In this document: positions 3,962 to 48,394 of the stretch, one piece after another
How positions within the stretch are numbered: the stretch's first letter is position 1
Layout: every line of letters begins with the position of its first letter
Assembly: GCA_964397195.1 (NCBI GenBank)
Contig: CAYNGY010000001.1
Location: forward strand, 269,415 to 333,414
Reading direction: 5' to 3'
Source of the DNA: an uncultured Gammaproteobacteria bacterium
GTDB lineage: Bacteria > Patescibacteriota > Patescibacteriia > SBBC01 > CAIJZX01
Length of the DNA: 64,000 nt
Translations under genes and position numbers: made by a program
Notes under the pieces: generated by a model
What the model saw: only the letters and a program-made list of their open reading frames with translations
The model's database searches: none
What the model was told of the DNA's origin: nothing

Positions 3962-3972
3962 GCACGTGCTGT

Positions 3973-4320
3973 ATGAATAACTCACAACAATCACGCCACC
4001 ATCGCCACCGCCGTATTCGCGCCTCGATTATCGGGACCGCTGAACGACCGCGTCTGGTTGTCTTTCGAAGTTTGAAACACATCTCCGCCCAGCTGATTGA
4101 TGACACCGTCGGTCGGACAATTGCCTCGGCCGATGACCGACAGCTCGAAAAAGCGAAAGGGAAGAAGGTTGACCTCGCCAAAGCGGTCGGGACGCTCATT
4201 GCCAAAAAGGCGACGGAGGCCAAAATTACTTCGGTGATATTTGATCGCGGTGGCTATCAGTTCCATGGACGCATTCGCGCACTGGCTGACGGCGCTCGTG
4301 AAGGAGGGTTAACGTTCTAA
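3973..4320 (+). CDS. rplR: 50S ribosomal protein L18
   Basis: 115 aa, basic N-terminus, RLVVFRS... L18 signature. Confidence 0.92.
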
Positions 4321-4321
4321 T

Positions 4322-4846: not shown

Positions 4847-5289
4847 TTACGTTACACACACTCACCCCATCATCCCGGCGCACGAACCCAAAGCGGGTTG
4901 GTCGGGGAAACTCCTCAGGTAAGGGGACTACTGCTGGCCGTGGAACGAAAGGGCAACGCGCCCGTACCGGTGGTCGCAATAAAACCGGTCGTCGCGCCTT
5001 AAAGGCGTTAATCGAACGAACGCCAAAAATCCGGGGGTTCCGCTCAATTCATGAGCCATGGACGGCGGTCCCGCTTGATGCCATCGCTCGCGCCTTTACT
5101 GGCACCGAGGTGATCACACCAGCGAAGTTGGCGGCCAAAGGCTTGATTCGTCGTGCTCGTCCCGGCGTTAAAATTGTCGGTGCGACTACGAGCGGAAAAA
5201 AATTGACCATTAAAGCACAGAAGTTTTCGGCTGGCGCAAAAGCCTCAATCGAAAAAGCTGGCGGTCACGCCATCGAATTAACATCATAA
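4843..5289 (+). CDS. rplO: 50S ribosomal protein L15
   Basis: 148 aa, Gly/Arg-rich N-terminus typical of L15; overlaps the rpsE stop (no L30 gene in between). Confidence 0.93.
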   Translation: MITLHTLTPSSRRTNPKRVGRGNSSGKGTTAGRGTKGQRARTGGRNKTGRRALKALIERTPKIRGFRSIHEPWTAVPLDAIARAFTGTEVITPAKLAAKGLIRRARPGVKIVGATTSGKKLTIKAQKFSAGAKASIEKAGGHAIELTS

Positions 5290-5294
5290 CGCCC

Positions 5295-20650: not shown

Positions 20651-21121
20651 ATGGCAGAAGGCCAAATACACACACCAGAACGACCGTCATTTGCCCCACC
20701 GGAAGTTGGGCCGGTTGATATTGAATCCAAGGTCGAGCATCCGACTCCGTCCGTAGATACGACGATGGTGCATGAAGTCGTACCCATCACCCCAATCATC
20801 CCAGTCAATGCTCAGCCGATGATGGATGCGGATGGCACGACGTCGGCGCTAACGAAGCGGGTCGAAGACATCATGGTGGCCGGTCTCGCCGAGACGTATG
20901 CCCAACTTGATCCGGCCACGCAAGCCAAGTTCAAGGCTGAAGGTGAACGCACGGCCGGACTGATTTCTGATATGTTGGCCACGGCTAAGATCCACGTCAA
21001 AAAAATCGTCGATCTGCTCGTCGCCTGGTTACGCATTGTGCCGGGCGTCAATAAATACTTTCTTGAACAAGAGGCAAAAATCAAGGCCGACAAACTGTTG
21101 GCGTTAAAAAAGAAGTCATGA
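20651..21121 (+). CDS. hypothetical protein
   Basis: 156 aa; extended -10 (TGTGATATAAT) just upstream; ATGA-coupled to the next gene. Confidence 0.6.
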   Translation: MAEGQIHTPERPSFAPPEVGPVDIESKVEHPTPSVDTTMVHEVVPITPIIPVNAQPMMDADGTTSALTKRVEDIMVAGLAETYAQLDPATQAKFKAEGERTAGLISDMLATAKIHVKKIVDLLVAWLRIVPGVNKYFLEQEAKIKADKLLALKKKS

Positions 21122-23637
21122 ACCCTGATAGCGCCGAGTTTATCGATTTGAATGCGCGTCCGCTGATGATCAGTCCATGGTGGTGGGTCGCGCTCGCGAC
21201 AGTCGTCGCCTTCGTGATCGCTGTGATCGTAATTCGGTACCTGACTCACAAACTGAATCGAATTCCGCGGGCGATGGAATATGTCGTACTGCTCGTTTTA
21301 CTCCCGCGCGAAACGCTGAAACTCGAACAACAGAATAAAGATTGGCGGGATGTCTTAGCCGGGTTTGAAACGCTCTACCTGACCTTGGCCGGTGTTCGAC
21401 TCGAACATGGCGGGTCTTTCGCCAAAGCCTGGCGCCATTTTTGGTTCGGCCGCCACGATCATCTTTCACTCGAGATCGTTTCGACCAAAGGACAAATTCA
21501 ATTCTACCTCGCTGTGCCACGCGCCGTGCGCCAACTGGTTGAACTTCAGATTCAGGCGCAGTACCCGCAAGCGGACATCGAAGAAGCCGAAGACTACAAT
21601 TTGTTCGCCGCGAACTCAACTATCCGCGGAACGATGCTTCGTCTGACGAAGCCCTTCTTTTTTCCGATCCGGACGTATCGGAAGCTCGATAGCGATCCGC
21701 TCAATGCCATTACGAATGTCCTGAGCAAAGTCCAGCCGCAAGAAGGCGCGGCCATCCAGATTCTCATTCGCCCGAAATCTTCGAACTGGAATAGTCGTGG
21801 TCGGCATATTGCCCGCGCCATGCAAGAAGGGAAAACGCTCGGCGAAGCCATGGGCAAGTCCGGCGGTAATGTGTTACTGGCCTCATTAAAAACCGAAAGC
21901 GATCGGTATAAGCAACCGAAGACGCCGTACGTCACGCCGATGGACCAAGAGCTGATACGGACGATGGAGGAAAAAGCGGGGAAGCCCGGTTTTGATGCCA
22001 ACATCCGCATCGTCACAGCTTCACCACTCGCTCCGAATGCTGACGTCCACCTCGAAAATATCGTCAACGCTTTCAGTCAATTTATCGCCCCAGAGTCGGG
22101 CAATCAATTTCGTCGCACCAGCATCGTCAGCTCGAGTCAACTGATTAGCGATTTTATCTTTCGGCATTTCGAGAATGGACGCCGCCTCGTCTTGACGAGC
22201 GAGGAGCTGAATAGTATCTATCACTTCCCGCTCCCGCAGACTGAGACGCCGAATATTCAATGGCTCGCGGCCAAACAAGCCGCGGCGCCGGTCAATTTGC
22301 CGAGTGACGGAATCACGCTTGGTCATAATGTCTTCCGCGGTCACGACGCCGTGATCAAATTAAAACCGAACGATCGCCGTCGCCATGTCTACGTGATTGG
22401 GACGACCGGATCAGGAAAAACGGTACTGATGCAAGAAATGGCCAAACAGGATATTCGCAATGGCGAAGGCGTTTGTATTGTTGATCCGCACGGGAGTTTT
22501 GTCGACGACGTCTTGCCCTGCATTCCGCCGTCGCGCATGCATGACGTCATTCTGTTTGATCCGTCGGATGTCGATCGGCCGATGGGGCTCAATATGCTCG
22601 AGGCTCGCTCACCGGAAGAGCGTGACTTTGCCGTCCAGGAGATGATTGCCATCTTCATGAAACTGTTCCCGCCGGAAATGATCGGGCCGATGTTTGAACA
22701 CAACATGCGGAACGCGATGTTGACGCTGATGGAAGACGACGAACATCCGGGAACGATTGCGGATATCCCGCGCATGTTCACCGATAAAACATTCCAGCAA
22801 TACAAAATTTCGAAAGTGAAAGACCCGGTCGTTCGGGCGTTCTGGGAGAAAGAGATGGCGAAGACGAGCGATTTCCATAAATCCGAAATGCTCGGCTACC
22901 TAATTTCAAAGGTTGGGCGATTTATTGAGAACTCGATGATGCGTAACATCATCGGACAACCAAAATCAGGGTTCAATTTTCGGGCGGTCATGGACGAACG
23001 CAAAATCTTGTTGGTGAATCTCTCGAAAGGAAAAATTGGCGAAGTCAACGCGGCGCTGCTCGGGCTAATCATCGTTTCGAAATTGCAGATGGCTGCCCTT
23101 GGTCGGGCGAACGTCACCGAACTAAATCGGCCGGATTTCTTCCTCTATATTGATGAGTTCCAAAACTTTATTACCGATTCAATTGCGACAATTCTATCGG
23201 AGGCCCGAAAATATAAATTGAATCTGACCATGGCCCATCAATATATGGGGCAACTCGTCCAGGGCACAGACACGCGAGTGCGGGATGCGGTGCTCGGCAA
23301 CGTGGGGACAATGGTCGCCTTCCGAATTGGTGTCGAAGATGCGGAAGTGCTTGATAAACAATTTGCTCCGACTTTTACGGCTTTCGATTTGGTCAACCAG
23401 CAGCGCTTTACCGCGTACGTTCGTCTCCTAATCGATAATACGGCCGCGCCGCCGTTTCATATGCAGACCTACCCATCCACGATTGGCCAGACGACGGTGG
23501 GTGAGGCGATCAAACAATACTCGCGCCTGCGCTACGGGAAAGGCCGCGCCGTGGTCGAGGCCGAAATTCTTGAGCGGACAAAGTTGGGCACCGTCACCGC
23601 GGGCGCGACGCCACTCCCACCAGAACCGTCTCGCTGA
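21118..23637 (+). CDS. VirD4/TraG/TraD-like type IV coupling protein family ATPase (membrane-anchored)
   Basis: 839 aa, N-terminal TM, Walker A GTTGSGKT, Walker B FLYIDEFQNF, overall T4CP-like architecture. Confidence 0.8.
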   Translation: MNPDSAEFIDLNARPLMISPWWWVALATVVAFVIAVIVIRYLTHKLNRIPRAMEYVVLLVLLPRETLKLEQQNKDWRDVLAGFETLYLTLAGVRLEHGGSFAKAWRHFWFGRHDHLSLEIVSTKGQIQFYLAVPRAVRQLVELQIQAQYPQADIEEAEDYNLFAANSTIRGTMLRLTKPFFFPIRTYRKLDSDPLNAITNVLSKVQPQEGAAIQILIRPKSSNWNSRGRHIARAMQEGKTLGEAMGKSGGNVLLASLKTESDRYKQPKTPYVTPMDQELIRTMEEKAGKPGFDANIRIVTASPLAPNADVHLENIVNAFSQFIAPESGNQFRRTSIVSSSQLISDFIFRHFENGRRLVLTSEELNSIYHFPLPQTETPNIQWLAAKQAAAPVNLPSDGITLGHNVFRGHDAVIKLKPNDRRRHVYVIGTTGSGKTVLMQEMAKQDIRNGEGVCIVDPHGSFVDDVLPCIPPSRMHDVILFDPSDVDRPMGLNMLEARSPEERDFAVQEMIAIFMKLFPPEMIGPMFEHNMRNAMLTLMEDDEHPGTIADIPRMFTDKTFQQYKISKVKDPVVRAFWEKEMAKTSDFHKSEMLGYLISKVGRFIENSMMRNIIGQPKSGFNFRAVMDERKILLVNLSKGKIGEVNAALLGLIIVSKLQMAALGRANVTELNRPDFFLYIDEFQNFITDSIATILSEARKYKLNLTMAHQYMGQLVQGTDTRVRDAVLGNVGTMVAFRIGVEDAEVLDKQFAPTFTAFDLVNQQRFTAYVRLLIDNTAAPPFHMQTYPSTIGQTTVGEAIKQYSRLRYGKGRAVVEAEILERTKLGTVTAGATPLPPEPSR

Positions 23638-35406: not shown

Positions 35407-36972
35407 ATGACCCAAGACACCGCCCTGGCGATCCTCACGACCGGCCGCAACGTCTTCCTGACCGGTGAACCCGGCTCGGGTAAGACGTATTTGGTGAACG
35501 CCTACGTCGAGTATCTTCGCGCCCACCACATCACCGTAGCCATCACCGCCTCAACCGGCATCGCCGCCACGCACATTTCCGGGGTAACCATTCACTCGTG
35601 GAGCGGCGTCGGAATCCGTGACCGCCTATCAAAAACCGATCTCGAGATCATTACGACGACCGACCGTCTCGCCAAGCAAATCTCCGGAACGGATGTCTTG
35701 ATCATCGACGAAATATCTATGCTCGATGCGTCCGTCCTGGAGATGGTTGATGAGGTTTGCAAATCCATTCGCCGCTCGGCTGAACCCTTCGGTGGCTTGC
35801 AGGTAGTTCTGGTCGGAGATTTTTTTCAGTTACCGCCGGTCTCACGTCCGGGTGACGAACCGGCGCGTTTTGCCTTTACCAGTCCGGTTTGGACCGAAGC
35901 GATGTTTGATGTCTGCTATCTGACCGAACAACACCGTCAATCCGACGCCGCCCTGACGAGCGTTCTGGCGGCGATTCGTGGTGGCCAACACTCCGATGAA
36001 GCAATGGCTCATCTCGACTCCCGTCGCGTCACGTATGACGCCGACGATCATGGCGCCACGAAACTCTATAGCCACAACGCTAATGTCGATGAGGTCAACG
36101 CCGAGAAACTCGAAAAACTTCCCGGCGATGTTCATGTCTTCGAGATGTCCCATCACGGCCCGCGTCATAAAATTGAAGCCTTAACCCGCGGCTGTCTGTC
36201 GCCGGAACGCTTGGAACTCAAAAAGGGCGCAGCGGTGATCTGCACCCGAAACAATCCGGAAAAAGGATTCGTCAATGGCACGTTGGCGACCGTGGTGGAT
36301 TTTGCCAAGACGGACGGCTATCCGATTGTCGAGACGCGTGATCGTCGACGCATCACGGTCGAACCAATGGATTGGGCAATTGATGAAGGGGAGAAGGGCG
36401 GCGCCCGGATTACCCAAGTCCCGCTCCGCCTCGCTTGGGCGATCACGGTGCACAAGAGCCAAGGAATGTCGCTCGATGCGGCGGTCATGGATTTGTCCCG
36501 TTCATTCGCGTTTGGGCAGGGTTACGTCGCGCTCTCGCGCGTCCGTTCACTCGATGGACTCTTCTTACTCGGGTGGAACAACCGTGCCTTGCTCGTTGAT
36601 CCGATTATTCAAGATCAAGACCGCGTCATGCGTGAACAGTCAGCCCAAGCTGAGCAGTCATGGGCGGCGCGGACCGCCGACGCCCGACGCGAACAACAAG
36701 AAGACTTCATCCGGCGCGCCGGCGGGGTCATCCATCCGAAAGTCTCGACCCACGTGCCGGGGGAAGTTATTGATGTCCCGCCACACGCCAAGCGACTTGA
36801 GGAGATTCGGAAGACCTATCCGCGCGCCTACACGCCGTGGAGTGATGACGACGATCAAGCCATTGCCGAACTCCATGCGAAAGACCTGCCGATGCGCGAG
36901 CTGGCCAAGCGCCTCGAGCGCCATCCGGGCGGGATTCGTTCGCGTCTCAAAAAACTCGGGTTGGTGCAGTAG
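35407..36972 (+). CDS. PIF1/RecD-like ATP-dependent DNA helicase
   Basis: 521 aa, Walker A GEPGSGKT, Walker B LIIDEISML, SF1B motifs, unusual basic C-terminal extension. Confidence 0.85.
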   Translation: MTQDTALAILTTGRNVFLTGEPGSGKTYLVNAYVEYLRAHHITVAITASTGIAATHISGVTIHSWSGVGIRDRLSKTDLEIITTTDRLAKQISGTDVLIIDEISMLDASVLEMVDEVCKSIRRSAEPFGGLQVVLVGDFFQLPPVSRPGDEPARFAFTSPVWTEAMFDVCYLTEQHRQSDAALTSVLAAIRGGQHSDEAMAHLDSRRVTYDADDHGATKLYSHNANVDEVNAEKLEKLPGDVHVFEMSHHGPRHKIEALTRGCLSPERLELKKGAAVICTRNNPEKGFVNGTLATVVDFAKTDGYPIVETRDRRRITVEPMDWAIDEGEKGGARITQVPLRLAWAITVHKSQGMSLDAAVMDLSRSFAFGQGYVALSRVRSLDGLFLLGWNNRALLVDPIIQDQDRVMREQSAQAEQSWAARTADARREQQEDFIRRAGGVIHPKVSTHVPGEVIDVPPHAKRLEEIRKTYPRAYTPWSDDDDQAIAELHAKDLPMRELAKRLERHPGGIRSRLKKLGLVQ

Positions 36973-37011
36973 GGGAGCACGACTGCGCGTAGATCGTGCT
37001 ACACTATTTGT

Positions 37012-37308
37012 ATGTACCATGTCTACATTCTGCGTTGCGCTGATGGGACGCTTTATACGGGAATGACGACGGATCTGCCGCGTCGCGTCGTGGAGCACAA
37101 CACGTCGTCAAAAGGCGCAAAATATACCAGAGCACGACGCCCGGTGACGATGGTCTACTCGAAACGATACCGCTTCCAACGGACGGCGGCTCGCGCTGAA
37201 GCGGCCATGAAGAAATTAACGCGAGACAAAAAACTAGCGCTCCTTCAGTCGCTTACTGTCGATGAGCGAGCGAAGAGCCTCCGAAAAGCACCGCCACTGA
37301 GCATGTAG
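37012..37308 (+). CDS. GIY-YIG nuclease family protein (second copy)
   Basis: MYHVYILRCADGTLYTGMTTDLPRRVVEH GIY-YIG motif. Confidence 0.8.
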   Translation: MYHVYILRCADGTLYTGMTTDLPRRVVEHNTSSKGAKYTRARRPVTMVYSKRYRFQRTAARAEAAMKKLTRDKKLALLQSLTVDERAKSLRKAPPLSM

Positions 37309-38527: not shown

Positions 38528-39055
38528 ATGCGTACATTGCTCATCGCCGTCCTGCTCATCGGGACGGTCAGTGTCGCCTTCGCCCAGGCCATCCAGCCGA
38601 AGACCCTCATCTCGAGCGGGGGAACGCATTCCGCCGCCGGGAATGTGACCATGACCTCGAACCTCGGCGAACCCATCGCCGGTCACTCGCTCAACGGATC
38701 GACCGAGATCTGGCACGGGTTCTACGCGCCGATCCCGCCGTCCCTCGTCGGCGTCGACAACGAACCGCCGATCACGTTCATGTCCTTCCTCGGACGGGTT
38801 AGTCCGAACCCACTGCGCACGTCGGCCGTCATCGAGTTCGGCAACGCGATCCATCAGCGGGTCGAGCTCACGCTCTATGACGTCACCGGGCGCCGCGTCC
38901 GCCAACTTCGGTCGGGCGACCTCTCCGCCGGCATCTTCCGGATCCCATGGGATCTGCGAACCGACGCCGGGCAGTCCGTTCCGGCGGGCATCTACTTCGT
39001 CCGTCTCGCCACCCGTGATTTCCACGGGACCAGACGAATGGTGGTCATCCGGTAG
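38528..39055 (+). CDS. secreted protein with T9SS-type C-terminal sorting domain (Por CTD-like)
   Basis: Signal peptide; C-terminal about 80 aa (SPNPLRTSAVIEF...VELTLYDVTGRRVRQL...AGIYFVRLAT) matches the T9SS CTD/FlgD-Ig-like pattern; GGAGG SD. Confidence 0.65.
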   Translation: MRTLLIAVLLIGTVSVAFAQAIQPKTLISSGGTHSAAGNVTMTSNLGEPIAGHSLNGSTEIWHGFYAPIPPSLVGVDNEPPITFMSFLGRVSPNPLRTSAVIEFGNAIHQRVELTLYDVTGRRVRQLRSGDLSAGIFRIPWDLRTDAGQSVPAGIYFVRLATRDFHGTRRMVVIR

Positions 39056-39072
39056 TGCATCGCTCCGTTGTA

Positions 39073-39109
39073 CCCCGATCCCTAGCAAGGATCCGGGGTT
39101 TTCTTTTTT
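39073..39109 (+). terminator. rho-independent terminator
   Basis: CCCCGATCC...GGATCCGGGG hairpin followed by TTTTCTTTTTT. Confidence 0.75.
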
Positions 39110-39220
39110 ATCCTAGTTATTTTTGACAGCCGCCCGGGTTCAAGCCAGAGACTAGGGTTTTGAGTTTATCCACAATCAAGGTATACTAGGCAGGTATTTT
39201 AGCTAAGAATAGGGGATAAA

Positions 39221-39249
39221 TTGACATTCGGTTTTTCTTCGGGTAAGAT
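39221..39249 (+). promoter_or_regulatory. sigma70-type promoter of the R-M methyltransferase
   Basis: TTGACA, 17-bp spacer, TAAGAT. Confidence 0.55.
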
Positions 39250-39255
39250 TGAGAC

Positions 39256-40059
39256 ATGGCTACAAAAAAGGTAAAGGAATTTCGGTATTTCGACCAACCC
39301 GATTTTCGGCTGTATAAGGGTGATTGTATTGAAGTTCTCAATGGTCTAAAAGAAAACTATTTTGATATGATCTTCGCCGATCCGCCGTACATGTTATCGA
39401 ACGGTGGGTTTACGGTTCACGCTGGAAAACGCGTCAGCGTAAATAAAGGAAAATGGGATGAAAGCAAGGGGGCAAAAGAAGATTTTGAGTTTCACGAAAA
39501 ATGGATTGCAGCCTGTCGCCGAGTCCTCAAACCCGATGGCACTATTTGGATTAGTGGGACCTATCATTCAATATATGCCTGTGGGTTCGCACTTCAACTG
39601 CAGGGTTTCAAGATCCTTAATGACATCGCTTGGTTTAAGCCCAACGCGAGTCCGAACTTGAGTGGCAGGTATTTTACCGCTAGTCATGAAACTTTGATCT
39701 GGGCGAGGAAGGATCCAAAGGCGAAGCATACCTTCAATTATAAGCTAATGAAAACCGGCGACTGGAACGGTGATTTTCTGAAGAATCCAGGCAAACAAAT
39801 GCGGAGTGTTTGGGCAATCGGGACGCCCAAGGCGGCTGAAAAGACTTTCGGGAAACACCCGACGCAAAAATCTTTAGCATTACTAGAGCGCATTGTTCTG
39901 GCTTCAACCAACAAAGGGGCGAGAATTCTTGATCCATTTTCGGGAAGCTCAACGACTGGGATAGCGGCCGTGAAACATGGTCGGGAGTTTGTTGGGGTTG
40001 ATATTGACCATAAATTTTTATCACTTTCAAAAATGCGTTATCAAGCCGAGAAAGGTTAA
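39256..40059 (+). CDS. type II DNA methyltransferase, beta-class N6-adenine/N4-cytosine (DPPY)
   Basis: 267 aa; motif IV DPPY precedes motif I LDPFSGSSTTG (beta-class order); AT-rich segment. Confidence 0.85.
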   Translation: MATKKVKEFRYFDQPDFRLYKGDCIEVLNGLKENYFDMIFADPPYMLSNGGFTVHAGKRVSVNKGKWDESKGAKEDFEFHEKWIAACRRVLKPDGTIWISGTYHSIYACGFALQLQGFKILNDIAWFKPNASPNLSGRYFTASHETLIWARKDPKAKHTFNYKLMKTGDWNGDFLKNPGKQMRSVWAIGTPKAAEKTFGKHPTQKSLALLERIVLASTNKGARILDPFSGSSTTGIAAVKHGREFVGVDIDHKFLSLSKMRYQAEKG

Positions 40060-40063
40060 TATT

Positions 40064-40546
40064 ATGTCTGCCACGTACGCCGCCGCTCAAGGGTCGGTTC
40101 TCGAACAGCAGGTTCGCAGTGTTCTCGGACAAAAAGGATTTCAACTGGAAAGATACTCGGCCTGGTTGAAGAACCCAATGATCGGGGACGAATTGTTGCT
40201 TACAAATGCGCCATTCACAACCATCTACAAGCATTCCGGACATACGGAGTTCTTGTTAGTATCAAAGAAATATAACATCCATACACGAATCGAATGTAAA
40301 TGGCAGCAATCCGCAGGCTCAGTGGACGAGAAGCTGCCGTATCTTTACCTGAACGCAATTGAACAAATGCCGGAAGAAGATATTATTATTCTTATTGATG
40401 GAAAAGGTTGGAAGCCGGGCGCAATACAATGGCTTAAGGATGCGATCCGTGAGAAAAAATATGTTGTTGGTATTACAAAAACCAAGAACATCCAGGTATT
40501 AGATCTGCAGGGATTCATTGCGTGGGCTAACAAGACATTCCGGTAG
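40064..40546 (+). CDS. putative type II restriction endonuclease (PD-(D/E)XK-like)
   Basis: About 160 aa directly after the MTase on the same strand in the AT-rich island; candidate E-x-K in TRIECKWQQ; no other detectable similarity, as usual for REases. Confidence 0.5.
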   Translation: MSATYAAAQGSVLEQQVRSVLGQKGFQLERYSAWLKNPMIGDELLLTNAPFTTIYKHSGHTEFLLVSKKYNIHTRIECKWQQSAGSVDEKLPYLYLNAIEQMPEEDIIILIDGKGWKPGAIQWLKDAIREKKYVVGITKTKNIQVLDLQGFIAWANKTFR

Positions 40547-40680
40547 CTTGACTTTTTGTTACCGAAAGAGTAAAGCAAGAGTAGATCGTTCGTTACGAGT
40601 GTCACACGCGTAACGACGTTCGGGAAGCGATCTTTCAACCCGGGGACAGTCCATGTCTCCACACCCACGCGAGGGACACG

Positions 40681-40878
40681 ATGATCATCCTCGAAGTCAT
40701 TGGTGCAGTGATCGGGGCGGCGCTGTTTCTGGCGCTGATCTTGGTGGTATTGCTATTGAACTACGGCGGCCGCCAGTGCAATAAGTGCGGCTCGCGAAGC
40801 ATCAAGTGGTGGACGCTCAGCTCGGGCGACTACCGCTGTGTCTGCAAGGACTGCGGACACCGGTGGGACGAGCACTAG
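40681..40878 (+). CDS. small membrane-anchored zinc-ribbon protein
   Basis: 65 aa, N-terminal TM, CNKCG...CVCKDCGH. Confidence 0.5.
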   Translation: MIILEVIGAVIGAALFLALILVVLLLNYGGRQCNKCGSRSIKWWTLSSGDYRCVCKDCGHRWDEH

Positions 40879-41010
40879 GTACCCTGCACCACGTGTGGGG
40901 TTTTACATTTGCGCTAAAAACAAAAGATGATCAGCAGTGAGCCCGCGACAGGAGAACAGTGTTTTCGGCGGGCGCTTTTGTCATGCACAATAGACACACC
41001 CGGCGACGAC

Positions 41011-41982
41011 ATGGTAGGATACCGCCTCATGCGAAAGACACATGGGATAATGCTCGGATCGATTCTCGGCCTCGTGGCGATTGGGGTCGTGATTGGGGTT
41101 GTCGTTGAACAGCGGAAGAACGCGGCCGTCACGGATGACCTGAGATATGTAAACGAGATAAACCTCAGTAATGAATTTGCCGCGGATGCAGAAGGTATAA
41201 ATGATTTGCTCATCTCGGACGACGTCAACAACACGGTGAACGCCGCCGAAAATAGCAATGTGAACAGTGCGGTTGTGAATTCTGCTACGGTCAATACCAA
41301 CGTTCGCGTCAACACCAATACGACGGCCAAGCCAAAGAACACCAACGTCGCGACCAATAAGAATACGAACACCGCCGCTAACAAAAACACCAACGTCGCG
41401 GTGAATCACAATACGAATACGACCACGAACACGTCGACTAATACGAGCGCGAATACGAACAGCACCAATACAAATACATCGCTGCCCCCGGCTCCGGGTG
41501 AAATTCGCTTTTCCGCCTATACGACCGGGTACGGCTGGCCAGACAATACGCCGCCGGGCGGAGCGGTCTCGAATCCGGTCATCCATTCGAGCGCCGGCGG
41601 AACGGGAACATACAGCGACCCGATTACCCTCGCTGTGGGGCATAGTATTATCAGCGGACAGGATTACCTCGACTACCCGGCCGGCACGAAGTTTTACATC
41701 CCCGCGCTGCGGCGATACTTTATCGTCGAAGACACCTGCGGCGACGGGAACGCGCCGCAAAATGGGCCGTGCCACACCAGCGATGATCCGAACCATCCGC
41801 AGCTTGACCTTTGGGTCGGGGGACAAGGAGCGGCGTCCGCGGCGGTGTTTAGCTGCGAGTCAGCTATTACCGAGGTCCACCTCGTCATTCAACATCCGGC
41901 GTCGACCTATCGCGTTGTCAGTGGGCCGATCTATTCGGGGACCTGCTCGGCGCTCTACGGCGATACGGTGCTAGCCCAATAA
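41011..41982 (+). CDS. membrane-anchored protein with Asn/Thr-rich linker and C-terminal 3D/RlpA-like (DPBB) domain
   Basis: TM, then an NTN-repeat low-complexity region, then C-terminal GTKFYIP...VEDTCGDG... resembling 3D-domain motifs; start ambiguous (41011 or 41029). Confidence 0.5.
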   Translation: MVGYRLMRKTHGIMLGSILGLVAIGVVIGVVVEQRKNAAVTDDLRYVNEINLSNEFAADAEGINDLLISDDVNNTVNAAENSNVNSAVVNSATVNTNVRVNTNTTAKPKNTNVATNKNTNTAANKNTNVAVNHNTNTTTNTSTNTSANTNSTNTNTSLPPAPGEIRFSAYTTGYGWPDNTPPGGAVSNPVIHSSAGGTGTYSDPITLAVGHSIISGQDYLDYPAGTKFYIPALRRYFIVEDTCGDGNAPQNGPCHTSDDPNHPQLDLWVGGQGAASAAVFSCESAITEVHLVIQHPASTYRVVSGPIYSGTCSALYGDTVLAQ

Positions 41983-42033: not shown

Positions 42034-44409
42034 CTAGACGTCGAGCGGATTCGGAACCGACGTTTGCGGAACGGCCTCGCTGAGGAGCTGGAGATGGAAG
42101 GCATGCGCGTCGCCGCGTTTGCGAACTTTGTTCCAGAGCGGAGTGGCACCCTCAATGGCTTTGATCACGCTGCGCCAGACAACCAAGGCGATCACAATCC
42201 GGTAGAAGATACGTTGGAGTGGGAGGAGGACAATCAGCCAGCGTTTCCCGCGCTCCGGATATAAGGCGAGACCGGCGTAGAGCAGGTCAATCGCGGTAAA
42301 AATCAGGTAGACAATGAAAGCCGATTGACCGGAACCGGTGATGATCGCGAGGATGAGCAGGAAGTCCATCAGTGGGACGAGGAGCGAGATCAAAACGGTA
42401 AAGATCAAGGTATTCGGGAGGACAACCCAGCCCAGTGCCGGTCGCTCAAAGCTCAAAAAGTGGCGTTTGTATTTCCACAGGCACTGGACCGTGCCGAAAA
42501 TCCATCGCGAGCGTTGCTTAATAAAATCCTTCAGGTGGAACGGCGTTTCGCTGTAGGCATAGGCTTGCGACTCATAGACGATGCGATGGCCGGCGGCGAG
42601 GAGCGCCAAGGTCAGGTCCTGGTCTTCGACGAGTGTATCGAGACTGAAACCCCCGGCGGCTAGGACGAATGAACGGCGCCAGGCCCCAACCGGTCCGGGC
42701 ACGACGCCGATAGCGTTTATTTCATTAAAGGCGCGCTTGTCCATGTTCTGCGTGATGATGTACTCGGCCGACTGGAAGACGTTGAGAATATTTCGCGACC
42801 GCGTAGCGCAGACGCGACCAGCCACGGCCGCTACGGACGGATCATGAAAATGACGAACGAGGCGGGCGATGGTGTACCGATCAAAAATAGTGTCGCCATC
42901 CATGAAGACGATCACCTCGGTCTTGGCTAAATGTAAACTATGGTTTAATGCACGGGCCTTGCCGCCGTTTTTCAGGTTGACGAGGCGAACACGTCGGTCA
43001 TGGCGGTCCTTGATGATTCCTCGGACAATCTCGGCGGTCTTGTCTTTCGAGCCGTCGTTGACGACCAAGATCTTGAGGTGTTCGTAGGTACTATTGAGGA
43101 CGCTGGTAATCGTCGCGCCGATATTATCTTCCTCGTTGTAGGCGGGAATGACGACGGTGACCGGCTTGGTCCAGGCCGACGGCCGAGCGTACCCATTGAC
43201 GGCAGCCACGCCGCGGAAGAGCAGGGTCATGATCAACCGTACGAGTACTAACAAGATGACGATCCGGGTGATCCAAATAACCGTCGTGGCAATCGCCGGC
43301 GCGAGGCTAATGTAGACGCGTGACGCATCAGAGAAGAGGAAGACCGTATTCGTTTGGTGGGAAGGGAGCGGTTGGTACATGGTGGCCGTAATCGCATCGG
43401 CGATTGACATCCGAGTGGTCCGGTCGACCACGCGTTTGGTATCCGGGAGATTGTGTGTGACCTGCCAGTCGACGACGGCGGCTTGCGTCGATGCGCCGTA
43501 GGTCCCGCCACGGTCAACAATCGAATAGCCGCTCATAATCATGAATTGCTGCAGGGCGGTGACGGAGCCGTCAGTTTTCGCATCGGTCGCGCCGGGTACG
43601 AGATCTTGGGTGATCGCCATTTTTTTGGCCGCATCGAGGCCGAGGAGGTCTGAAGCGGTGGTGAACCGATACCCACGGGCGCGAAGCTCGTGGATTATGT
43701 CGGTCAGCGCGGCGATCGTATAGCGTTCGCTGCTCCCATCGTGCAAGAGAATGATATGCCCGCCACCCTTCATCTTTTCCAGCAAGGCGTCAACATTCTG
43801 TTTCGGAGAGGTCGCGACCCAATCTTTCGGGTCGACGTCTGCGCCGACAACCACGTACCCATTTTGCAGGGCCCAGTACAATTGCGGTTGCGATCCCGTC
43901 GGGGCGGTGGTAGGGTCGCTGCCAATATCGAGGAGATATGGGGGCCGGTAGAGCCGGATCGGTTGGCGGGTAATCGTTTCAATGATCGTATCGGTCAGGT
44001 TGAGCTCGAGTCGTAACCGCCAGTTTGAAGACTGGGCTGTTTGGGAGTGCGTGAAGCTGTGATTGCCGATTTCAAAGCCGTTCTCGGCCGCTTTTTTAAC
44101 AAGGGCCGGGTAACGCAGCGCCCGCGAGCCAATAAAAAAGAAGGTGGCCGGAACCTGCTCTCGTTTTAGCACGTCCATGATCGCTTCGGTGCGACCGGGC
44201 GAAGGGCCGTCATCAAAAGTCAGCGCCACGACCTTCGCGGCGCCGACATTATTGTAGTAATAGTTAATATTGACCTGCGCTGGTGGTCGATTGCTCGTCA
44301 GGAGGCCATAACTGAAATCGGCGACGAGAAAGATACTCAGGGCCAAAACAACGCCAACGATTCCACGAAAGATGAACTTACGAAAACGTCGCTGATTATG
44401 GAAAATCAT
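42034..44409 (-). CDS. bifunctional polysaccharide deacetylase (NodB/PgaB-like) / family-2 glycosyltransferase (PgaC/IcaA-like synthase)
   Basis: N-terminal TM, NodB motifs (TFDDGP, HSFTHS), a PG-binding-like segment, then a GT2 domain (VIPAYNEE, DGDT, QRSRW-type QxxRW) with C-terminal TMs. Confidence 0.8.
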   Translation of the reverse strand: MIFHNQRRFRKFIFRGIVGVVLALSIFLVADFSYGLLTSNRPPAQVNINYYYNNVGAAKVVALTFDDGPSPGRTEAIMDVLKREQVPATFFFIGSRALRYPALVKKAAENGFEIGNHSFTHSQTAQSSNWRLRLELNLTDTIIETITRQPIRLYRPPYLLDIGSDPTTAPTGSQPQLYWALQNGYVVVGADVDPKDWVATSPKQNVDALLEKMKGGGHIILLHDGSSERYTIAALTDIIHELRARGYRFTTASDLLGLDAAKKMAITQDLVPGATDAKTDGSVTALQQFMIMSGYSIVDRGGTYGASTQAAVVDWQVTHNLPDTKRVVDRTTRMSIADAITATMYQPLPSHQTNTVFLFSDASRVYISLAPAIATTVIWITRIVILLVLVRLIMTLLFRGVAAVNGYARPSAWTKPVTVVIPAYNEEDNIGATITSVLNSTYEHLKILVVNDGSKDKTAEIVRGIIKDRHDRRVRLVNLKNGGKARALNHSLHLAKTEVIVFMDGDTIFDRYTIARLVRHFHDPSVAAVAGRVCATRSRNILNVFQSAEYIITQNMDKRAFNEINAIGVVPGPVGAWRRSFVLAAGGFSLDTLVEDQDLTLALLAAGHRIVYESQAYAYSETPFHLKDFIKQRSRWIFGTVQCLWKYKRHFLSFERPALGWVVLPNTLIFTVLISLLVPLMDFLLILAIITGSGQSAFIVYLIFTAIDLLYAGLALYPERGKRWLIVLLPLQRIFYRIVIALVVWRSVIKAIEGATPLWNKVRKRGDAHAFHLQLLSEAVPQTSVPNPLDV

Positions 44410-44776
44410 GGGGGAAAATCTTTGGCGGTGACAAGGACTCGACTGTGCGGGCCGCAATTTTCCCTGTATTTAGCTCCGGTGTCAAGTTCGTTTGGATGGT
44501 CAAGTTGGGGACAAGTTTTTTGGCCACAACCAAAAGGGCAAATGGAACAATTCATCCCCAACTTATTTGTTGACAGGGGAGCCGGCCATATGGTTAGCTA
44601 ATATCCGCGCAATTCGTAAAGACCGAAAAGAAAACGATCCTTTCCCATTGTCTGGACCTCAACGGAACGTCATGCGTTTAGGAGGATCTATGAGAACCGT
44701 CCCATTTCGGCGGTCCTTTTTTCGGTATTTTCACTCGTCGTATATTATCTGGTCATAAAAAAATAATTCCATCATT

Positions 44777-47700
44777 ATGCAGAGCAAGTTCTCAATCGGC
44801 TGGAGAGTGCCGAACCGAAAAACCACCCGCCAGCGTTCGTGGCGCACCCTAAATGCGATCGTGGCGGTCTCGGTATTGGTCAACGTCTGTGGCTTTGGCC
44901 TGTTTGGGGCACCACAAGCGGCCGCGGCGCTTGATTCGGGTGCGATTGCGCCGAACCAGACACTGGTGTCGAATGCGGTCACCAGCCCAGATAATGCGTG
45001 GGTTTCCGACAATAATCGTGCCATATTTGGTGCCAGCACCGACACGGCAGATTATGGCTTCGCGAATATCGGCGTGCCGGTTGGCGCCACGATCACTGGT
45101 ATTCAGGTGACGTTGGAAGGGTTGCATTCATCGGGGTTTAACGCGCGTACCCTTACGACAGCACTTTGGAATACGTCGGGGAGCACACCGGACGCGTACA
45201 CGACGGTAAAAACAGCCTCGTCGATGTCGACGAGCTCAAACGACAACGTCAGCACGTTGGGTGGCGCGTCTGATCTGTGGGGCAAAACATGGACCGATGC
45301 TGACTTTGCCAGTGGTACCTTCAAATTGCGGATTGGTGTCAGCGGCTCCAACGGCAGCGCCCAACTCGATCAAGTACTGATCAAAGTGTATTTTACACCG
45401 GCCTGTGCATTAGCTACCCAGGGCAACCAGGTGAGTAACGGCGATTTTGAGATCGCCAGCGGCGATCCAACACTGCCGATGGACTGGGTGCCCGGCTACT
45501 TCGACCCCCTCAATATTACGCCAACCTTTACCTATCCGGTGGCCGGTAACCCTGGCAAGGCGGCGAACGTTCAAGTTTCTGCCTACACGGCGGCTTCTGG
45601 TGAAGAGGCGAAGTGGCTCTTTACCCCGGTCACGACCTGCCCGGGCAAAACGTTTGATATTTCCATCGGCTACACCTCAAACGTTCTGACGAGCGTCTGG
45701 GTGGCGTACCAAATGTCGAATGGAACGACGCCGAATCCAGAATGGGTCGCTGATGCGCCGGCCAGTGCGGCGTGGTCCACCGTGACAGGTCAAATAACCA
45801 TTCCGGCCGGAGTCGCGAGCTTTCAGGTCTTCCAGTCGCTGGCCGCCGTCGGTTCGCTAACGATTGATGCCGTCTCGGTCAAACCGCTCGTGCCGTTCCC
45901 CGAAGGGATGGTGACGCTCAATTTCGATGATACCTTCGCGAGCCAATATACCGTCGCCCCGCCAATCCTCAGCGCCGCGAACCTGAAGGCCAGCTTCTTC
46001 GCGATCACCGATTCGTCCGTTGGTATCGGATCGGACAGCAACTATATGACCTGGGCGAATGTGGCGGCACTGAATGCAGCTGGCCATGAAATCGGTGCTC
46101 ACACTCGGACGCACCCCGACTTAAGTCTCCTGACACCAGAACAGGCGCAGATTGAAATTGCTGGCTCGAAGACGGATTTAGTAAATCACGGTCTGACGCC
46201 AACCACCTTTGTGTATCCGTATGGCGTCTATAACGCCGCCATCATCCAGATGGTCAAAGATGCTGGATTCACGAGCGCCCGAAGCGTGGTTCGTGGTTTC
46301 AACTACCGAACATCGAATAAGTACGCCCTCCTTGATCAGCAAATCATCAACACGACCACGGTCGCCGAAGTTCAAGGTTGGATTGATCAAGCCAAAGCCA
46401 ATAAAACGTGGCTGATTCTTGAGCTCCATGAGCAGACCTCGACACCGGGTCCTGACACTGGCGTGTACTACAACACACCGACGCGATTGCAGGAAATCGT
46501 CACCGCGATTAAGAATAGCGGCATCAAGGTGGTGACGCAATCCGAGGGGACGACCTTAATCAATCCGGTGATCACGGTGGCGCCGTACGTGTTGACGCCA
46601 ACGAATCAAGATATCACCGTGACCGCCACGACAGATTCGGGCACGCTCAACGCGACGTCGCACCTATTTACTGCTAATGGATCGTTTGATTTTATCGCGA
46701 CGGATGAGAACGGGAATTCGACGACAAAAACGGTCACCATTACCAATATCGATAAGGTTGCGCCGGTGGTGACTATTGCGCCGTACACATTGACGCCGAC
46801 CAATCAAGACATCACCGTCGCGGCCAGCACAAACGAGGGGACGCTGAATACCACCTCACATGTCTTTACGGTCAATAGCGCTTTCGACTTCATCGCGACC
46901 GATGCAGCCGGGAATGTGACCACCCAGGCCGTGACCGTGACGAACATTGATAAAACAGCGCCGATTATTACGCTCGATCCTTACAATACGGCGCTGACGA
47001 ATAGCGATATTACCGTCACGGCGCATACGAATGAAGGAACGCTCAATGTGGCCTCGCACACGTTCACGCTGAACGGCTCGTTTGATTTCGTGGCGACTGA
47101 TGCAGCCGGGAATGTGACCACCCAGACCGTGACGATCAATAATATCGATCGCATCGCGCCCGCTGGCACCATCTCGTACAACACCACGGCGCCGACCAAT
47201 GGCCACGTCGTGGCCACCCTGCTCCCAAACAAGTCCGTGACCGTGACGAATAACGGTGGCTTGTTCACCCATGTGTTCACCACGAACGGGAGCTTTACGT
47301 TCACCTTCGTCGATGAGGCAAATAATACCGGATCGGCGATGGCGATTGTCTCAAACATTGATACGACCGCCCCGGTCATCACATTGACGCCATACAATAC
47401 CGCCCCGACAAATACTGATATCACGGTCTTTGCCACGACAAACGAGGGCTCACTCAACGCGACGGCACATACGTTTAGTGCGAACGGCGCCTTCACCTTC
47501 GTGGCGACGGATGCGGCCGGTAATAGCACGTCTCAGGCGGTGACGATCAGCAATCTGAACAAGGTCAAGCCGGTGATCACCCTGATCGGGTCAGCTACCA
47601 TCACTCTGACAAAAGGCGCGGCCTATAGCGATGCTGGCGCGACGGCGACTGATGATGTCGATGGCGATATCTCGATCAAGATGACGGCTGAGAACTCGGT

Positions 47701-48394
47701 GAACACGGCGGTTGTCGGGACCTATGCTGTCCGCTACACCGTGACCGATTCCGCCGGCAACGTAGCCGATCCAGTCACTCGGACGGTGAACGTGGAGGCT
47801 GCCCCGCAAGTGCTAGGCGCCACAACCTTCCACCCGATCATCAAAACGATCAAGCCGGTTAAAGGTGTGTACTCGTACAAGCTGAACGGGAAGACGATCA
47901 AGATTCAGCCGTTCGGTTCAGACTATAAAGGTGTGGTGTGGGGACGGAGCATCGACTTCGGAACGAGTGGCAAGATTTATGTCTTCCTGAATGCCGGTGC
48001 CTATAAGAAAGGCCAGATCAAGGTGTACCAAGCCAACGGGAAGCTCTTAAAGAGCTACAGTCCGTACGGTGGGTTTGCCCTGAGTGGCCTGAACGCTTCC
48101 ATCGTTTCGGAATCAAACGATCAAGTCTATCTCGTGGTGGGGACGCTCCGCGCCGGGACGACCGTCAAGACCTATCAGGTTACCGCCAAGAAGCTCACGG
48201 CGTTGAATGGACTCGTGACGACGACCAAATCCGGAAATGTCCAAGTGAGTTTCCAAAAGCTGTATAAAGGCCAGTATGGTCTGGTGACGATGAAGCTCGG
48301 CGATCGCAAGACATTGAAAGTCTGGAAACTGAATTTCACGACCAAAAAGTTTGTCGAAGATAAGAAAATCAGCAAAACGAAGCTGAAAATCTAA
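44777..48394 (+). CDS. large (1205 aa) secreted surface protein with NodB-like deacetylase domain and tandem Ig-like repeats
   Basis: Signal peptide; NodB-like block (VTLNFDDTF...HTRTHPDL); five about 75-aa repeats; C-terminal DUF5011/HYR-like Ig domain. Confidence 0.8.
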   Translation: MQSKFSIGWRVPNRKTTRQRSWRTLNAIVAVSVLVNVCGFGLFGAPQAAAALDSGAIAPNQTLVSNAVTSPDNAWVSDNNRAIFGASTDTADYGFANIGVPVGATITGIQVTLEGLHSSGFNARTLTTALWNTSGSTPDAYTTVKTASSMSTSSNDNVSTLGGASDLWGKTWTDADFASGTFKLRIGVSGSNGSAQLDQVLIKVYFTPACALATQGNQVSNGDFEIASGDPTLPMDWVPGYFDPLNITPTFTYPVAGNPGKAANVQVSAYTAASGEEAKWLFTPVTTCPGKTFDISIGYTSNVLTSVWVAYQMSNGTTPNPEWVADAPASAAWSTVTGQITIPAGVASFQVFQSLAAVGSLTIDAVSVKPLVPFPEGMVTLNFDDTFASQYTVAPPILSAANLKASFFAITDSSVGIGSDSNYMTWANVAALNAAGHEIGAHTRTHPDLSLLTPEQAQIEIAGSKTDLVNHGLTPTTFVYPYGVYNAAIIQMVKDAGFTSARSVVRGFNYRTSNKYALLDQQIINTTTVAEVQGWIDQAKANKTWLILELHEQTSTPGPDTGVYYNTPTRLQEIVTAIKNSGIKVVTQSEGTTLINPVITVAPYVLTPTNQDITVTATTDSGTLNATSHLFTANGSFDFIATDENGNSTTKTVTITNIDKVAPVVTIAPYTLTPTNQDITVAASTNEGTLNTTSHVFTVNSAFDFIATDAAGNVTTQAVTVTNIDKTAPIITLDPYNTALTNSDITVTAHTNEGTLNVASHTFTLNGSFDFVATDAAGNVTTQTVTINNIDRIAPAGTISYNTTAPTNGHVVATLLPNKSVTVTNNGGLFTHVFTTNGSFTFTFVDEANNTGSAMAIVSNIDTTAPVITLTPYNTAPTNTDITVFATTNEGSLNATAHTFSANGAFTFVATDAAGNSTSQAVTISNLNKVKPVITLIGSATITLTKGAAYSDAGATATDDVDGDISIKMTAENSVNTAVVGTYAVRYTVTDSAGNVADPVTRTVNVEAAPQVLGATTFHPIIKTIKPVKGVYSYKLNGKTIKIQPFGSDYKGVVWGRSIDFGTSGKIYVFLNAGAYKKGQIKVYQANGKLLKSYSPYGGFALSGLNASIVSESNDQVYLVVGTLRAGTTVKTYQVTAKKLTALNGLVTTTKSGNVQVSFQKLYKGQYGLVTMKLGDRKTLKVWKLNFTTKKFVEDKKISKTKLKI
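46560..47580 (+). repeat. about 225-bp tandem repeats (5 copies) inside the surface-protein gene
   Basis: Repeating peptide unit PVVTIAPYTLTPTNQDITV.A.T.EGTLN.TSH.FT.N..FDF.ATDAAGN.TTQ.VT.TNIDK.AP read directly in the sequence. Confidence 0.85.

What the first reader, a model, noticed from the sequence alone, without database searches (positions are those of the whole stretch)
39110..40560. AT-rich island carrying a type II R-M pair (DPPY beta-class MTase plus small REase candidate)
GC drops sharply over about 1.45 kb. The island has its own promoter (TTGACA-17-TAAGAT). The 267-aa MTase has motif IV (DPPY) before motif I (FSGSSTTG), the beta-class N6A/N4C order. The REase candidate is fused by a 4-bp gap. 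The 160-aa downstream ORF has no detectable motif beyond a candidate E-x-K, as expected for restriction endonucleases. A terminator lies upstream, and a 7-bp inverted repeat (CGTTACG...CGTAACG) lies at the downstream edge.
Basis: partly seen in the sequence, partly recalled or inferred. Interest (0 to 1): 0.5.

Follow-up and report, generated by a model that had tools for sequence, protein, structure and literature searches.

The report
Two-gene restriction-modification cassette, probably GATC
A 1.5-kb low-GC island in a CPR-like bacterial genome carries an ordinary two-gene restriction-modification defence system: a DpnA-like adenine methyltransferase and a small nuclease from an experimentally uncharacterised family that most likely cuts unmethylated GATC.

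The parts
39072..39110 (+). Intrinsic-terminator-like hairpin (39072-39099) plus U-run (39100-39110). It probably ends the upstream host gene 38528-39055 and marks the left edge of the low-GC island.
   Evidence: strand folding gives -14.9 kcal/mol, z -1.9; sequence.
39160..39187 (+). Alternative promoter-like site TTGAGT-16-TATACT (9/12). It would give a 5' UTR of roughly 60 nt.
39221..39249 (+). Best promoter-like site, TTGACA-17-TAAGAT (10/12). The -10 ends 6 nt before the MTase ATG, a geometry that would give a leaderless or near-leaderless mRNA. This is inferred and is not conserved in L082.
39256..40059 (+). M gene: 267-aa beta-class N6-adenine DNA methyltransferase, DpnA/LlaDCHIB-like. 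Motif IV DPPY is at nt 39379-39390 and motif I FSGSSTTG at nt 39937-39960.
   Evidence: PF01555 at E 2.8e-55. 50% identity and 253 bits to pSRQ700 LlaDCHIB. CcrM scores only 194-200 bits. PADLOC MTase_II at E 1.8e-94. Tree.
40050..40063 (+). Junction between the genes: Shine-Dalgarno-like GAAAGG (40050-40055) inside the 3' end of the M gene, stop TAA 40057-40059, 4-nt spacer TATT. This arrangement suits translational coupling of R to M.
   Evidence: sequence
40064..40546 (+). R gene: 160-aa PD-(D/E)XK nuclease of family PF20472 (PDDEXK_11). Proposed catalytic residues are E14, E62 (nt 40247-40249), E77-C-K79 (nt 40292-40300) and the D88-E89-K90 helix. All are invariant across 27 homologues.
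40590..40616 (+). Imperfect 13-nt palindrome containing CGTTACG/CGTAACG, 44 nt after the R stop, at the right edge of the low-GC island. It has no U-tract and its function is unknown.

Best explanation
This is a horizontally acquired, two-gene Type IIP restriction-modification cassette. The first gene encodes a beta-class (DpnA/LlaDCHIB-like) m6A methyltransferase that protects the host's DNA. The second gene is translated from the same transcript just 4 nt downstream. It encodes a small PD-(D/E)XK endonuclease of family PF20472, presumably a homodimer, that cuts the same site when it is unmethylated. The site is most probably GATC. That would make the system functionally equivalent to DpnII/MboI, but with a half-size nuclease and only one methyltransferase. 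Shown here: the gene structure, the family memberships, the nuclease fold, the conserved acidic and lysine residues, the consistent MTase linkage in other genomes, the foreign base composition, and the different flanks in different hosts. Inferred: GATC specificity, double-strand cleavage, dimerisation, operon transcription and coupling, and current activity in this genome.
For: Nuclease: PF20472 at E 7e-50; a confident PD-(D/E)XK model; type II REases among the top structural hits; 53 invariant columns including E14, E62, E77, K79. Linkage: of 77 loci from species-representative genomes, 63 carry a Dam-like alpha MTase beside the nuclease gene (60 directly upstream on the same strand) and 9 carry the beta MTase; gaps are mostly -4 to +6 nt. 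GATC, line 1: the majority alpha partner's best solved relative is DpnM (M1.DpnII) at E 8e-55, against 6e-27 for E. coli Dam. GATC, line 2: the window's MTase is most similar, among annotated records, to the middle beta-MTase of three-gene DpnII cassettes on pSRQ700 and on Staphylococcus and L. plantarum plasmids, whose REases are PF04556 at 268-344 bits. It also groups with them to the exclusion of CcrM, with 78/100 bootstrap. GATC, line 3: 10 of 27 family members hit the DpnII Pfam model (best E 1.2e-6), and the profile-profile match to DpnII REases has E 7.7e-5 over 106 columns covering the catalytic half, whereas the control against MutH-like proteins gives E 0.5. GATC, line 4: MTases 73-76% identical to the window's are followed by MutH-like nucleases (PF02976 at 27 and 37 bits; best PDB hit MutH). 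The gonococcal homologue is called 'DPNIIB-like' and lies inactivated beside the GmeATC-cutting Drg. Mobility: GC z -4.6. The nearest cassette, L082, is also a low-GC island with unrelated flanks, and homology is limited to the coding regions. One copy sits on an Alicyclobacillus plasmid next to an Abi gene, and 29 viral contigs carry relatives.
Against: I found no member of PF20472 that has been characterised biochemically: no paper mentions the family, no solved homologue exists by sequence, and neither PADLOC nor PHROGs has a model. The DpnII similarity is below Pfam's threshold for the window protein itself (18.1 vs 23 bits), and hhalign probability is only 62%. The nuclease lacks the N-terminal ~145 residues of DpnII, so how it would read GATC is unknown. 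GATC is neither avoided nor enriched in the window (ratio 0.96), which is uninformative. Four of 77 loci carry the nuclease without an adjacent MTase. By PDB sequence search the MTase's best solved hit is CcrM (GANTC). The MTase tree is a simple NJ tree with moderate support.
Confidence: 0.78

Rival explanations
1. It is a genuine Type II R-M pair, but with a recognition site other than GATC, for example GANTC as in CcrM/HinfI-type beta-MTases.
For: The best solved-structure and NCBIfam hits of the MTase are CcrM. Specificity cannot be read from sequence with certainty at 50% identity. GANTC words are slightly below expectation in the window (85 observed against 101 expected for GAGTC/GACTC).
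Against: Annotated GATC-cassette MTases score higher than CcrM types (253 vs 196-200 bits), and CcrM falls outside the clade. The same nuclease family pairs mostly with DpnM-like alpha MTases. The nuclease resembles DpnII. Close MTase relatives pair with MutH-like nucleases.
Confidence: 0.12
2. The small nuclease is not a restriction enzyme. It would be a methylation-directed nicking or repair enzyme, a functional analogue of MutH acting on hemimethylated GATC, teamed with its own Dam-like methylase.
For: Its obligate association with GATC-type adenine MTases would also suit strand discrimination. Sister cassettes carry MutH-family proteins in the same position. A 160-aa protein could act as a monomeric nickase.
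Against: The family has no detectable similarity to MutH (Pfam; hhalign E 0.5). Its distribution is patchy across phyla and archaea (364 of about 185,000 species genomes). It sits on foreign-composition islands, on a plasmid beside an Abi gene and on viral contigs. That is the behaviour of selfish defence cassettes rather than of repair genes. Interchangeable MTase classes fit dependence on the methyl mark alone.
Confidence: 0.05
3. The cassette is a decayed or silent remnant: the methyltransferase acts as a de facto orphan, and the nuclease is inactive or not expressed in this host.
For: Activity cannot be assessed from sequence. The promoter-like elements are not conserved with the nearest relative. 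R-M nuclease genes are often inactivated, and the gonococcal homologue locus is degenerate.
Against: Both ORFs are intact and full length. The window's nuclease keeps all 53 columns that are invariant in the family alignment. The MTase keeps its catalytic and SAM-binding motifs. The tight 4-nt junction with an SD-like element is preserved.
Confidence: 0.05

Closest known systems
DpnII / LlaDCHI / MboI-type GATC restriction-modification cassettes (DpnM alpha-MTase, DpnA beta-MTase, R.DpnII of Pfam PF04556)
   Same: The window's MTase is 50% identical over 252 residues to LlaDCHIB, the DpnA-type beta-MTase of pSRQ700. The nuclease aligns remotely to the C-terminal catalytic half of DpnII-family REases: IECKWQQ..GS matches IETNYYGGGGS, and IDGxGWK matches TDGQGWK. 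Gene order is M then R on one strand. The likely site is GATC.
   Different: The system has two genes rather than three, and no alpha MTase occurs in the window. The nuclease is 160 aa, not about 285-310 aa, and lacks the whole N-terminal half. It scores below the PF04556 threshold (18 vs 23 bits) and belongs to a separate Pfam family, PF20472.
Majority form of the PF20472 cassette (DpnM-like alpha-class Dam-family MTase + PF20472 nuclease), e.g. Ignavibacterium album, Chloroherpeton thalassium, Alicyclobacillus sp. TC plasmid p1
   Same: It uses the same nuclease family at 55-64% identity, the same M-then-R order and the same tight spacing.
   Different: Here the MTase is the circularly permuted beta class rather than the alpha class. 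Only 9 of 77 sampled loci share this arrangement, and they occupy at least 3-4 positions in a rough nuclease tree.
CcrM (Caulobacter cell-cycle-regulated GANTC methyltransferase)
   Same: It is the best solved-structure match of the MTase catalytic domain (E 2.5e-56, residues 19-261 vs 16-257). Both are beta-class with DPPY.
   Different: The window's MTase has no C-terminal DNA-binding extension (267 vs 358-376 aa). It scores 230 bits against the equivalog cut-off of 830. It is not an orphan, and it falls outside the CcrM branch in the tree.
Neisseria gonorrhoeae drg/NgoAXI locus (DpnI-like Drg + truncated 'DpnIIB-like' MTase)
   Same: The gonococcal MTase remnant is 51% identical to the window's. 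It is followed by a 151-aa ORF that shares the E-x-K-[FW]-QQ-x-x-GSVDEKL core of PF20472.
   Different: The gonococcal MTase carries a premature stop. Its small ORF is a sister type, similar only in the core (E 3e-4 to PF20472). The locus is dominated by a methyl-dependent enzyme, Drg (PMC4269198, PMC6789123).

Membership tests
Type II (IIP) restriction-modification system | A separate DNA methyltransferase with an intact SAM-binding motif I and catalytic motif IV | tested here: met
   PF01555 at E 2.8e-55; DPPY at residues 42-45 and FSGSSTTG at residues 228-235; PADLOC MTase_II at E 1.8e-94.
Type II (IIP) restriction-modification system | An adjacent, separately encoded endonuclease with a nuclease fold and catalytic residues | tested here: met
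Type II (IIP) restriction-modification system | Nuclease and MTase are linked across genomes, showing functional dependence | tested here: met
   73 of 77 loci have an adenine MTase adjacent to the nuclease gene.
Type II (IIP) restriction-modification system | The nuclease cleaves the sequence that the MTase protects; restriction of foreign DNA | not testable with these tools
   This needs cloning, cleavage assays or a methylome.
Pfam PF20472 (PDDEXK_11) | Score above the gathering threshold over the full-length model | tested here: met
   168.9 bits against 23.7; residues 6-159 match model positions 2-145 of 145.
DpnII REase family (Pfam PF04556) | Score above the gathering threshold and full-length architecture of about 280 aa | tested here: not met
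   18.1 bits against 23. Only model positions 147-273 are matched and the protein is 160 aa. Remote homology is supported by 10 of 27 members and hhalign E 7.7e-5.
DpnII-type three-gene cassette | Presence of both a DpnM-like alpha MTase and a DpnA-like beta MTase | tested here: not met
   The 64-kb window holds a single [DNS]PP[YFW] MTase ORF. The upstream gene is a FlgD_ig-domain protein.
DpnA/LlaDCHIB-type beta-MTases (GATC) | Closer to cassette-defined GATC beta-MTases than to MTases of other specificity | tested here: met
   253 bits and 50% identity to LlaDCHIB, against 196-200 bits for CcrM types and about 116 bits for YhdJ-like MTases. NJ tree with 78/100 bootstrap.
DpnA/LlaDCHIB-type beta-MTases (GATC) | Methylation of the adenine in GATC | not testable with these tools
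   Inferred only.
CcrM (NCBIfam NF050803 equivalog) | Score above the equivalog cut-off, including the C-terminal domain; an orphan gene | tested here: not met
   229.9 bits against 830. The match covers model positions 5-249 of 350. A nuclease gene follows 4 nt downstream.
MutH / Sau3AI family (PF02976) | Sequence match to the MutH model | tested here: not met
   No PF02976 hit. hhalign against MutH-like partners gives E 0.5.

The most novel reading that the evidence does not exclude
PF20472 would be an uncharacterised family of minimal (~160 aa) GATC-specific restriction endonucleases. Each would be a stand-alone version of the DpnII catalytic half that reads its site without the DpnII N-terminal domain. 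The family pairs interchangeably with alpha (DpnM-like) or beta (DpnA-like) methyltransferases. The beta-MTase clade circulating in CPR bacteria would act as a hub that has recruited at least four different small nucleases: PF20472, MutH-like, a PF20472 sister type and an unknown 157-aa protein.
Probability: 0.5. Interest if true: 0.4.

Novelty: new member of a known kind. Interest (0 to 1): 0.3.

Why it matters
On its own this is one more Type II R-M cassette, and R-M systems are very common, so the biological surprise is small. The analysis adds three things. First, it gives a testable functional and specificity assignment (GATC restriction enzyme) to a Pfam family of more than 1,200 sequences. 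That family is currently annotated only as 'PD-(D/E)XK nuclease superfamily' and is often mis-named, for example as '4-diphosphocytidyl-2C-methyl-D-erythritol kinase' or 'site-specific DNA methylase'. Second, it provides a clean example of modular exchange in R-M evolution: the same nuclease pairs with two permuted MTase classes, and the same MTase pairs with several nuclease families. Third, it shows that such cassettes move among small CPR/Patescibacteria genomes. If confirmed, the 160-aa enzyme would be among the smaller type II REases I know of (similar in size to the 157-aa PvuII) and a compact model for GATC recognition.

Tried and rejected
1. Recognition-site avoidance. GATC has an observed/expected ratio of 0.96 in the window, and no palindromic 4-mer or GANTC word stands out. 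This is uninformative.

2. Direct experimental evidence. No paper mentions PF20472 or PDDEXK_11. None of the cultured carriers I could name appears in the Blow et al. 2016 methylome supplements. A search for Neisseria GATC enzyme names returned only unrelated papers.

3. Sequence search of the nuclease against the PDB gave only noise (E about 1). PADLOC and PHROGs have no model for it. The annotated phage collection has no match.

4. The AFDB Foldseek library was unavailable. The viral structure library returned only generic PD-(D/E)XK proteins.

5. Terminal repeats or target duplications around the island. The 9-11-nt inverted repeats that flank it (for example 39133-39143 with 40634-40644) are about as frequent as my rough estimate for chance in 1.9 kb (about 15 such pairs). 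28 inverted-repeat pairs were reported in all. I rejected them as element ends.

6. A conserved cassette promoter or terminator. Alignment with the nearest relative, L082, shows no conservation outside the coding regions.

7. A CcrM-like orphan MTase. Rejected.

9. A hidden alpha MTase or controller (C) protein in the island. None was found.

Full report
OBSERVATION. The reported feature is real. The stretch 39110-40560 has GC 0.442. Forty-two non-overlapping windows of the same size elsewhere in the 64 kb average 0.564 (sd 0.027), giving z = -4.57. No sliding window outside the island is as low, and the sliding minimum starts at 39139. Third-position GC is 0.46 and 0.50 for the two genes, against 0.54-0.85 for 26 other ORFs; the immediate neighbours have 0.85 and 0.83. 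The composition is therefore foreign, not just intergenic. Two co-oriented ORFs fill the island: 39256-40059 (267 aa) and 40064-40546 (160 aa). They are separated by TAA plus the 4-nt spacer TATT, with a GAAAGG Shine-Dalgarno-like element inside the end of the first gene. DPPY (residues 42-45) precedes FSGSSTTG (residues 228-235), which is the beta-class motif order. The promoter-like site TTGACA-17-TAAGAT lies at 39221-39249 and matches 10 of 12 positions. Its -10 ends six bases before the ATG, so if it is used the mRNA would be leaderless or nearly so. A second candidate lies at 39160-39187. A bulged hairpin at 39072-39099 followed by UUUUCUUUUUU is a plausible terminator of the upstream host gene. 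The CGTTACG/CGTAACG repeat is part of a 13-nt imperfect palindrome at 40590-40616.

THE TWO PROTEINS. The first is a PF01555 N6/N4 DNA methyltransferase (E 2.8e-55) and matches PADLOC 'Type II methyltransferase' models (E 1.8e-94). Its best solved relative is the catalytic domain of CcrM (E 2.5e-56). However, it scores 230 bits against an equivalog cut-off of 830 and lacks CcrM's C-terminal domain.

THE NUCLEASE FAMILY AND ITS PARTNERS. The family is large and well conserved. More than 1,240 clusters at 90% identity match, nearly all about 160 aa long and 55-78% identical to the query. At 50% clustering, 940 clusters match. Relatives occur in 364 of about 185,000 species-representative genomes, across Bacteroidota, Ignavibacteria, Chlorobi, Planctomycetota (Brocadia), Chloroflexota, Cyanobacteria, Spirochaetota, Bacillota, Patescibacteria and an archaeon, Methanocella. 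Database names are often wrong, for example '4-diphosphocytidyl-2C-methyl-D-erythritol kinase' and 'site-specific DNA methylase'.

I extracted flanking ORFs from 77 loci and clustered them. Sixty-three loci have a Dam-family alpha-class MTase next to the nuclease gene: 60 immediately upstream on the same strand (usually -4 to +6 nt apart), 2 one gene further upstream and 1 convergent. Nine loci have the beta-class MTase seen in this window. Four have no adjacent MTase. No locus has both MTase classes. So the nuclease is linked to an adenine MTase in 95% of loci, but the MTase class is interchangeable. In a rough neighbour-joining tree the beta-linked nucleases occupy at least three or four separate positions, which suggests more than one exchange. 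This is the behaviour expected of a restriction enzyme that depends on the methyl mark rather than on a particular MTase protein.

WHICH SITE? Four independent lines point to GATC.

(1) The majority alpha partner's best solved relative is DpnM, the M1.DpnII GATC methylase (E 8e-55). It scores far above E. coli Dam (6e-27).

(2) Among annotated plasmids, the window's beta MTase is most similar to the middle gene of three-gene DpnII-type cassettes. One is pSRQ700 of Lactococcus lactis, which encodes LlaDCHI. I know that system from the literature as experimentally GATC-specific and related to DpnII. The match is 50% identity over 252 residues, 253 bits. Equivalent cassettes sit on Staphylococcus and Lactiplantibacillus plasmids. 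Their REases are bona fide PF04556 members (268-344 bits), and their first genes are D12-class Dam-like MTases. CcrM-type MTases of alpha-proteobacteria score lower (196-200 bits). In an NJ tree rooted on a YhdJ-like MTase, CcrM falls outside a clade that contains all the cassette MTases (78/100 bootstrap).

(3) The nuclease family is remotely homologous to the catalytic half of DpnII enzymes. Ten of 27 members hit PF04556 on their own (best E 1.2e-6). A profile-profile comparison with three DpnII-family REases gives E 7.7e-5 over 106 columns, aligning IECKWQQxxGS with IETNYYGGGGS and IDGxGWK with TDGQGWK. The same profile against MutH-like proteins gives E 0.5.

(4) The closest relatives of the window's MTase (73-80% identical, mostly from Patescibacteria) are each followed directly by a small gene, but the family of that gene differs. 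Two are MutH-like proteins (PF02976 at 27 and 37 bits; best PDB hit E. coli MutH, the GATC nickase). One is a 174-aa protein that shares only the E-x-K-F-QQ-x-x-GSVDEKL core of PF20472. One is an unknown 157-aa protein.

The gonococcal homologue of the MTase (51% identity) is described in the literature as 'DPNIIB-like' and truncated. It lies next to drg, whose product cuts GmeATC (PMC4269198, PMC6789123). Loss of a GATC methylase beside a methyl-GATC-dependent nuclease makes sense. None of this is a measurement. I put GATC at roughly 75-80% given that the pair is an R-M system. Site-avoidance statistics were uninformative.

MOBILITY AND HOST. The exact protein pair occurs only on this genome: a 477-kb NCBI MAG contig and a Logan assembly of SRR12487045. 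The host's cysteinyl-tRNA synthetase is closest to Candidatus Kerfeldbacteria sequences (52-63% identity), so the host is probably a CPR/Patescibacteria bacterium with unusually high GC. The nearest cassette (nuclease 77% and MTase about 75% identical) lies on a different contig, L082. It is again a low-GC island (about 0.40 against 0.55-0.65) and sits between unrelated genes (MazG-like and Fic). DNA similarity stops at the ends of the two coding regions. The promoter-like site and the palindrome are therefore local features, not conserved parts of the cassette. The flanking short inverted repeats are at chance level. Other copies lie on an Alicyclobacillus plasmid next to an Abi gene and on 29 IMG/VR viral contigs, nine of which have a Dam-like MTase directly upstream.

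MECHANISM (inferred). The two genes are probably transcribed together from the AT-rich leader. The MTase is translated first. The nuclease start is 4 nt after the MTase stop, with its ribosome-binding site inside the MTase gene, which favours coupled and probably lower expression of the nuclease. No controller protein is present. The MTase would methylate the adenine of GATC on both strands. The nuclease, most likely a homodimer like other small type IIP enzymes such as the 157-aa PvuII, would cut unmethylated GATC in incoming DNA using E62/E77/K79 and Mg2+.

RIVALS. The alternatives are a different recognition site (about 0.12), a MutH-like methyl-directed nickase (about 0.05) and a silent remnant (about 0.05). 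The dam+/dam- toxicity test, a methylome and a cleavage assay would separate them.

VERDICT. This is an ordinary kind of system (Type II R-M) and a new member of it. The modest novelty has two parts. The nuclease family PF20472 appears to be uncharacterised, and it can now be predicted to be a 'mini-DpnII' GATC enzyme. The locus also illustrates swapping of both MTase class and nuclease family around a constant specificity. Interest 0.3.

Noticed in passing
L088:3001-4285 (GCA_038065275.1, Patescibacteria): A beta-MTase 80% identical to the window's, followed by an unknown 157-aa ORF with no Pfam hit, is inserted inside the F-type ATP synthase operon. It lies between the gamma-subunit gene (2025-2960) and the beta-subunit-like gene (4377-5750).
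   Followed up: partly
L087:1958-4217 (Neisseria gonorrhoeae NZ_CP119142.1, listed by PLSDB as a 2.17-Mb 'plasmid'): Downstream of leuS lie drg (DpnI-like), a beta-MTase with an in-frame TAG at 3439-3441, and a 151-aa ORF (3762-4217). That ORF carries a PF20472-like core (EIKFQQTPGSVDEKL) and is 48% identical to the MTase partner in a Doudnabacteria contig (L090:3933-4457). It may be the leftover nuclease of a former GATC R-M system beside a methyl-GATC-dependent enzyme.
   Followed up: partly
L089:3814-4431 and L091:3828-4448: In Patescibacteria-like contigs, MutH-family proteins of about 205 aa lie directly downstream of beta-MTases 73-76% identical to the window's. They could be small Sau3AI/MutH-type GATC restriction enzymes or MTase-linked MutH analogues.
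   Followed up: partly
L039:1603-2313 and L066:1145-1855: In two Bacteroidota loci a conserved 236-aa ORF of unknown function lies between the Dam-like MTase and the PF20472 nuclease gene.
   Followed up: no
L060, L064, L076, L081 (nuclease at about 4001-4480; at 1894-2370 in L064): These loci carry solitary PF20472 genes with no adjacent MTase. In two Ardenticatenaceae genomes (L060, L076) the gene sits between the same pair of host genes.
   Followed up: partly
window 38528-39055: The host gene just upstream of the island has a FlgD Ig-like domain (PF13860) and a sub-threshold T9SS C-terminal sorting-domain match (PF18962, 23.9 vs 27 bits). That is unexpected for a CPR-like genome. Its GC3 of 0.85 is the highest in the window.
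   Followed up: no
window 40927-41982: A 351-aa ORF with a long Asn/Thr-rich low-complexity region (NTNT...-type repeats) has no Pfam match. It follows a 65-aa membrane-anchored zinc-ribbon ORF (40681-40878).
   Followed up: no
window 21118-23637 and 35407-37308: The window encodes a VirD4/TrwB-like coupling-protein ATPase (839 aa), and a PIF1-family helicase (35407-36972) followed by a small GIY-YIG protein (37012-37308). These are possible mobile-element or DNA-transfer genes in the same neighbourhood.
   Followed up: no
window 44350-44800: A second, smaller GC dip (0.43-0.46) coincides with the 319-nt divergent intergenic region between 42034-44457 (-) and 44777-48394 (+). Both genes encode polysaccharide-deacetylase-domain proteins.
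   Followed up: no
L123:2480-4152 (Clostridium butyricum megaplasmid): A beta-MTase (41% identical to the window's) is followed by a Dam-like alpha MTase, with no annotated restriction gene, next to an IS1182 transposase. It looks like a DpnII-type cassette that has lost its nuclease.
   Followed up: no
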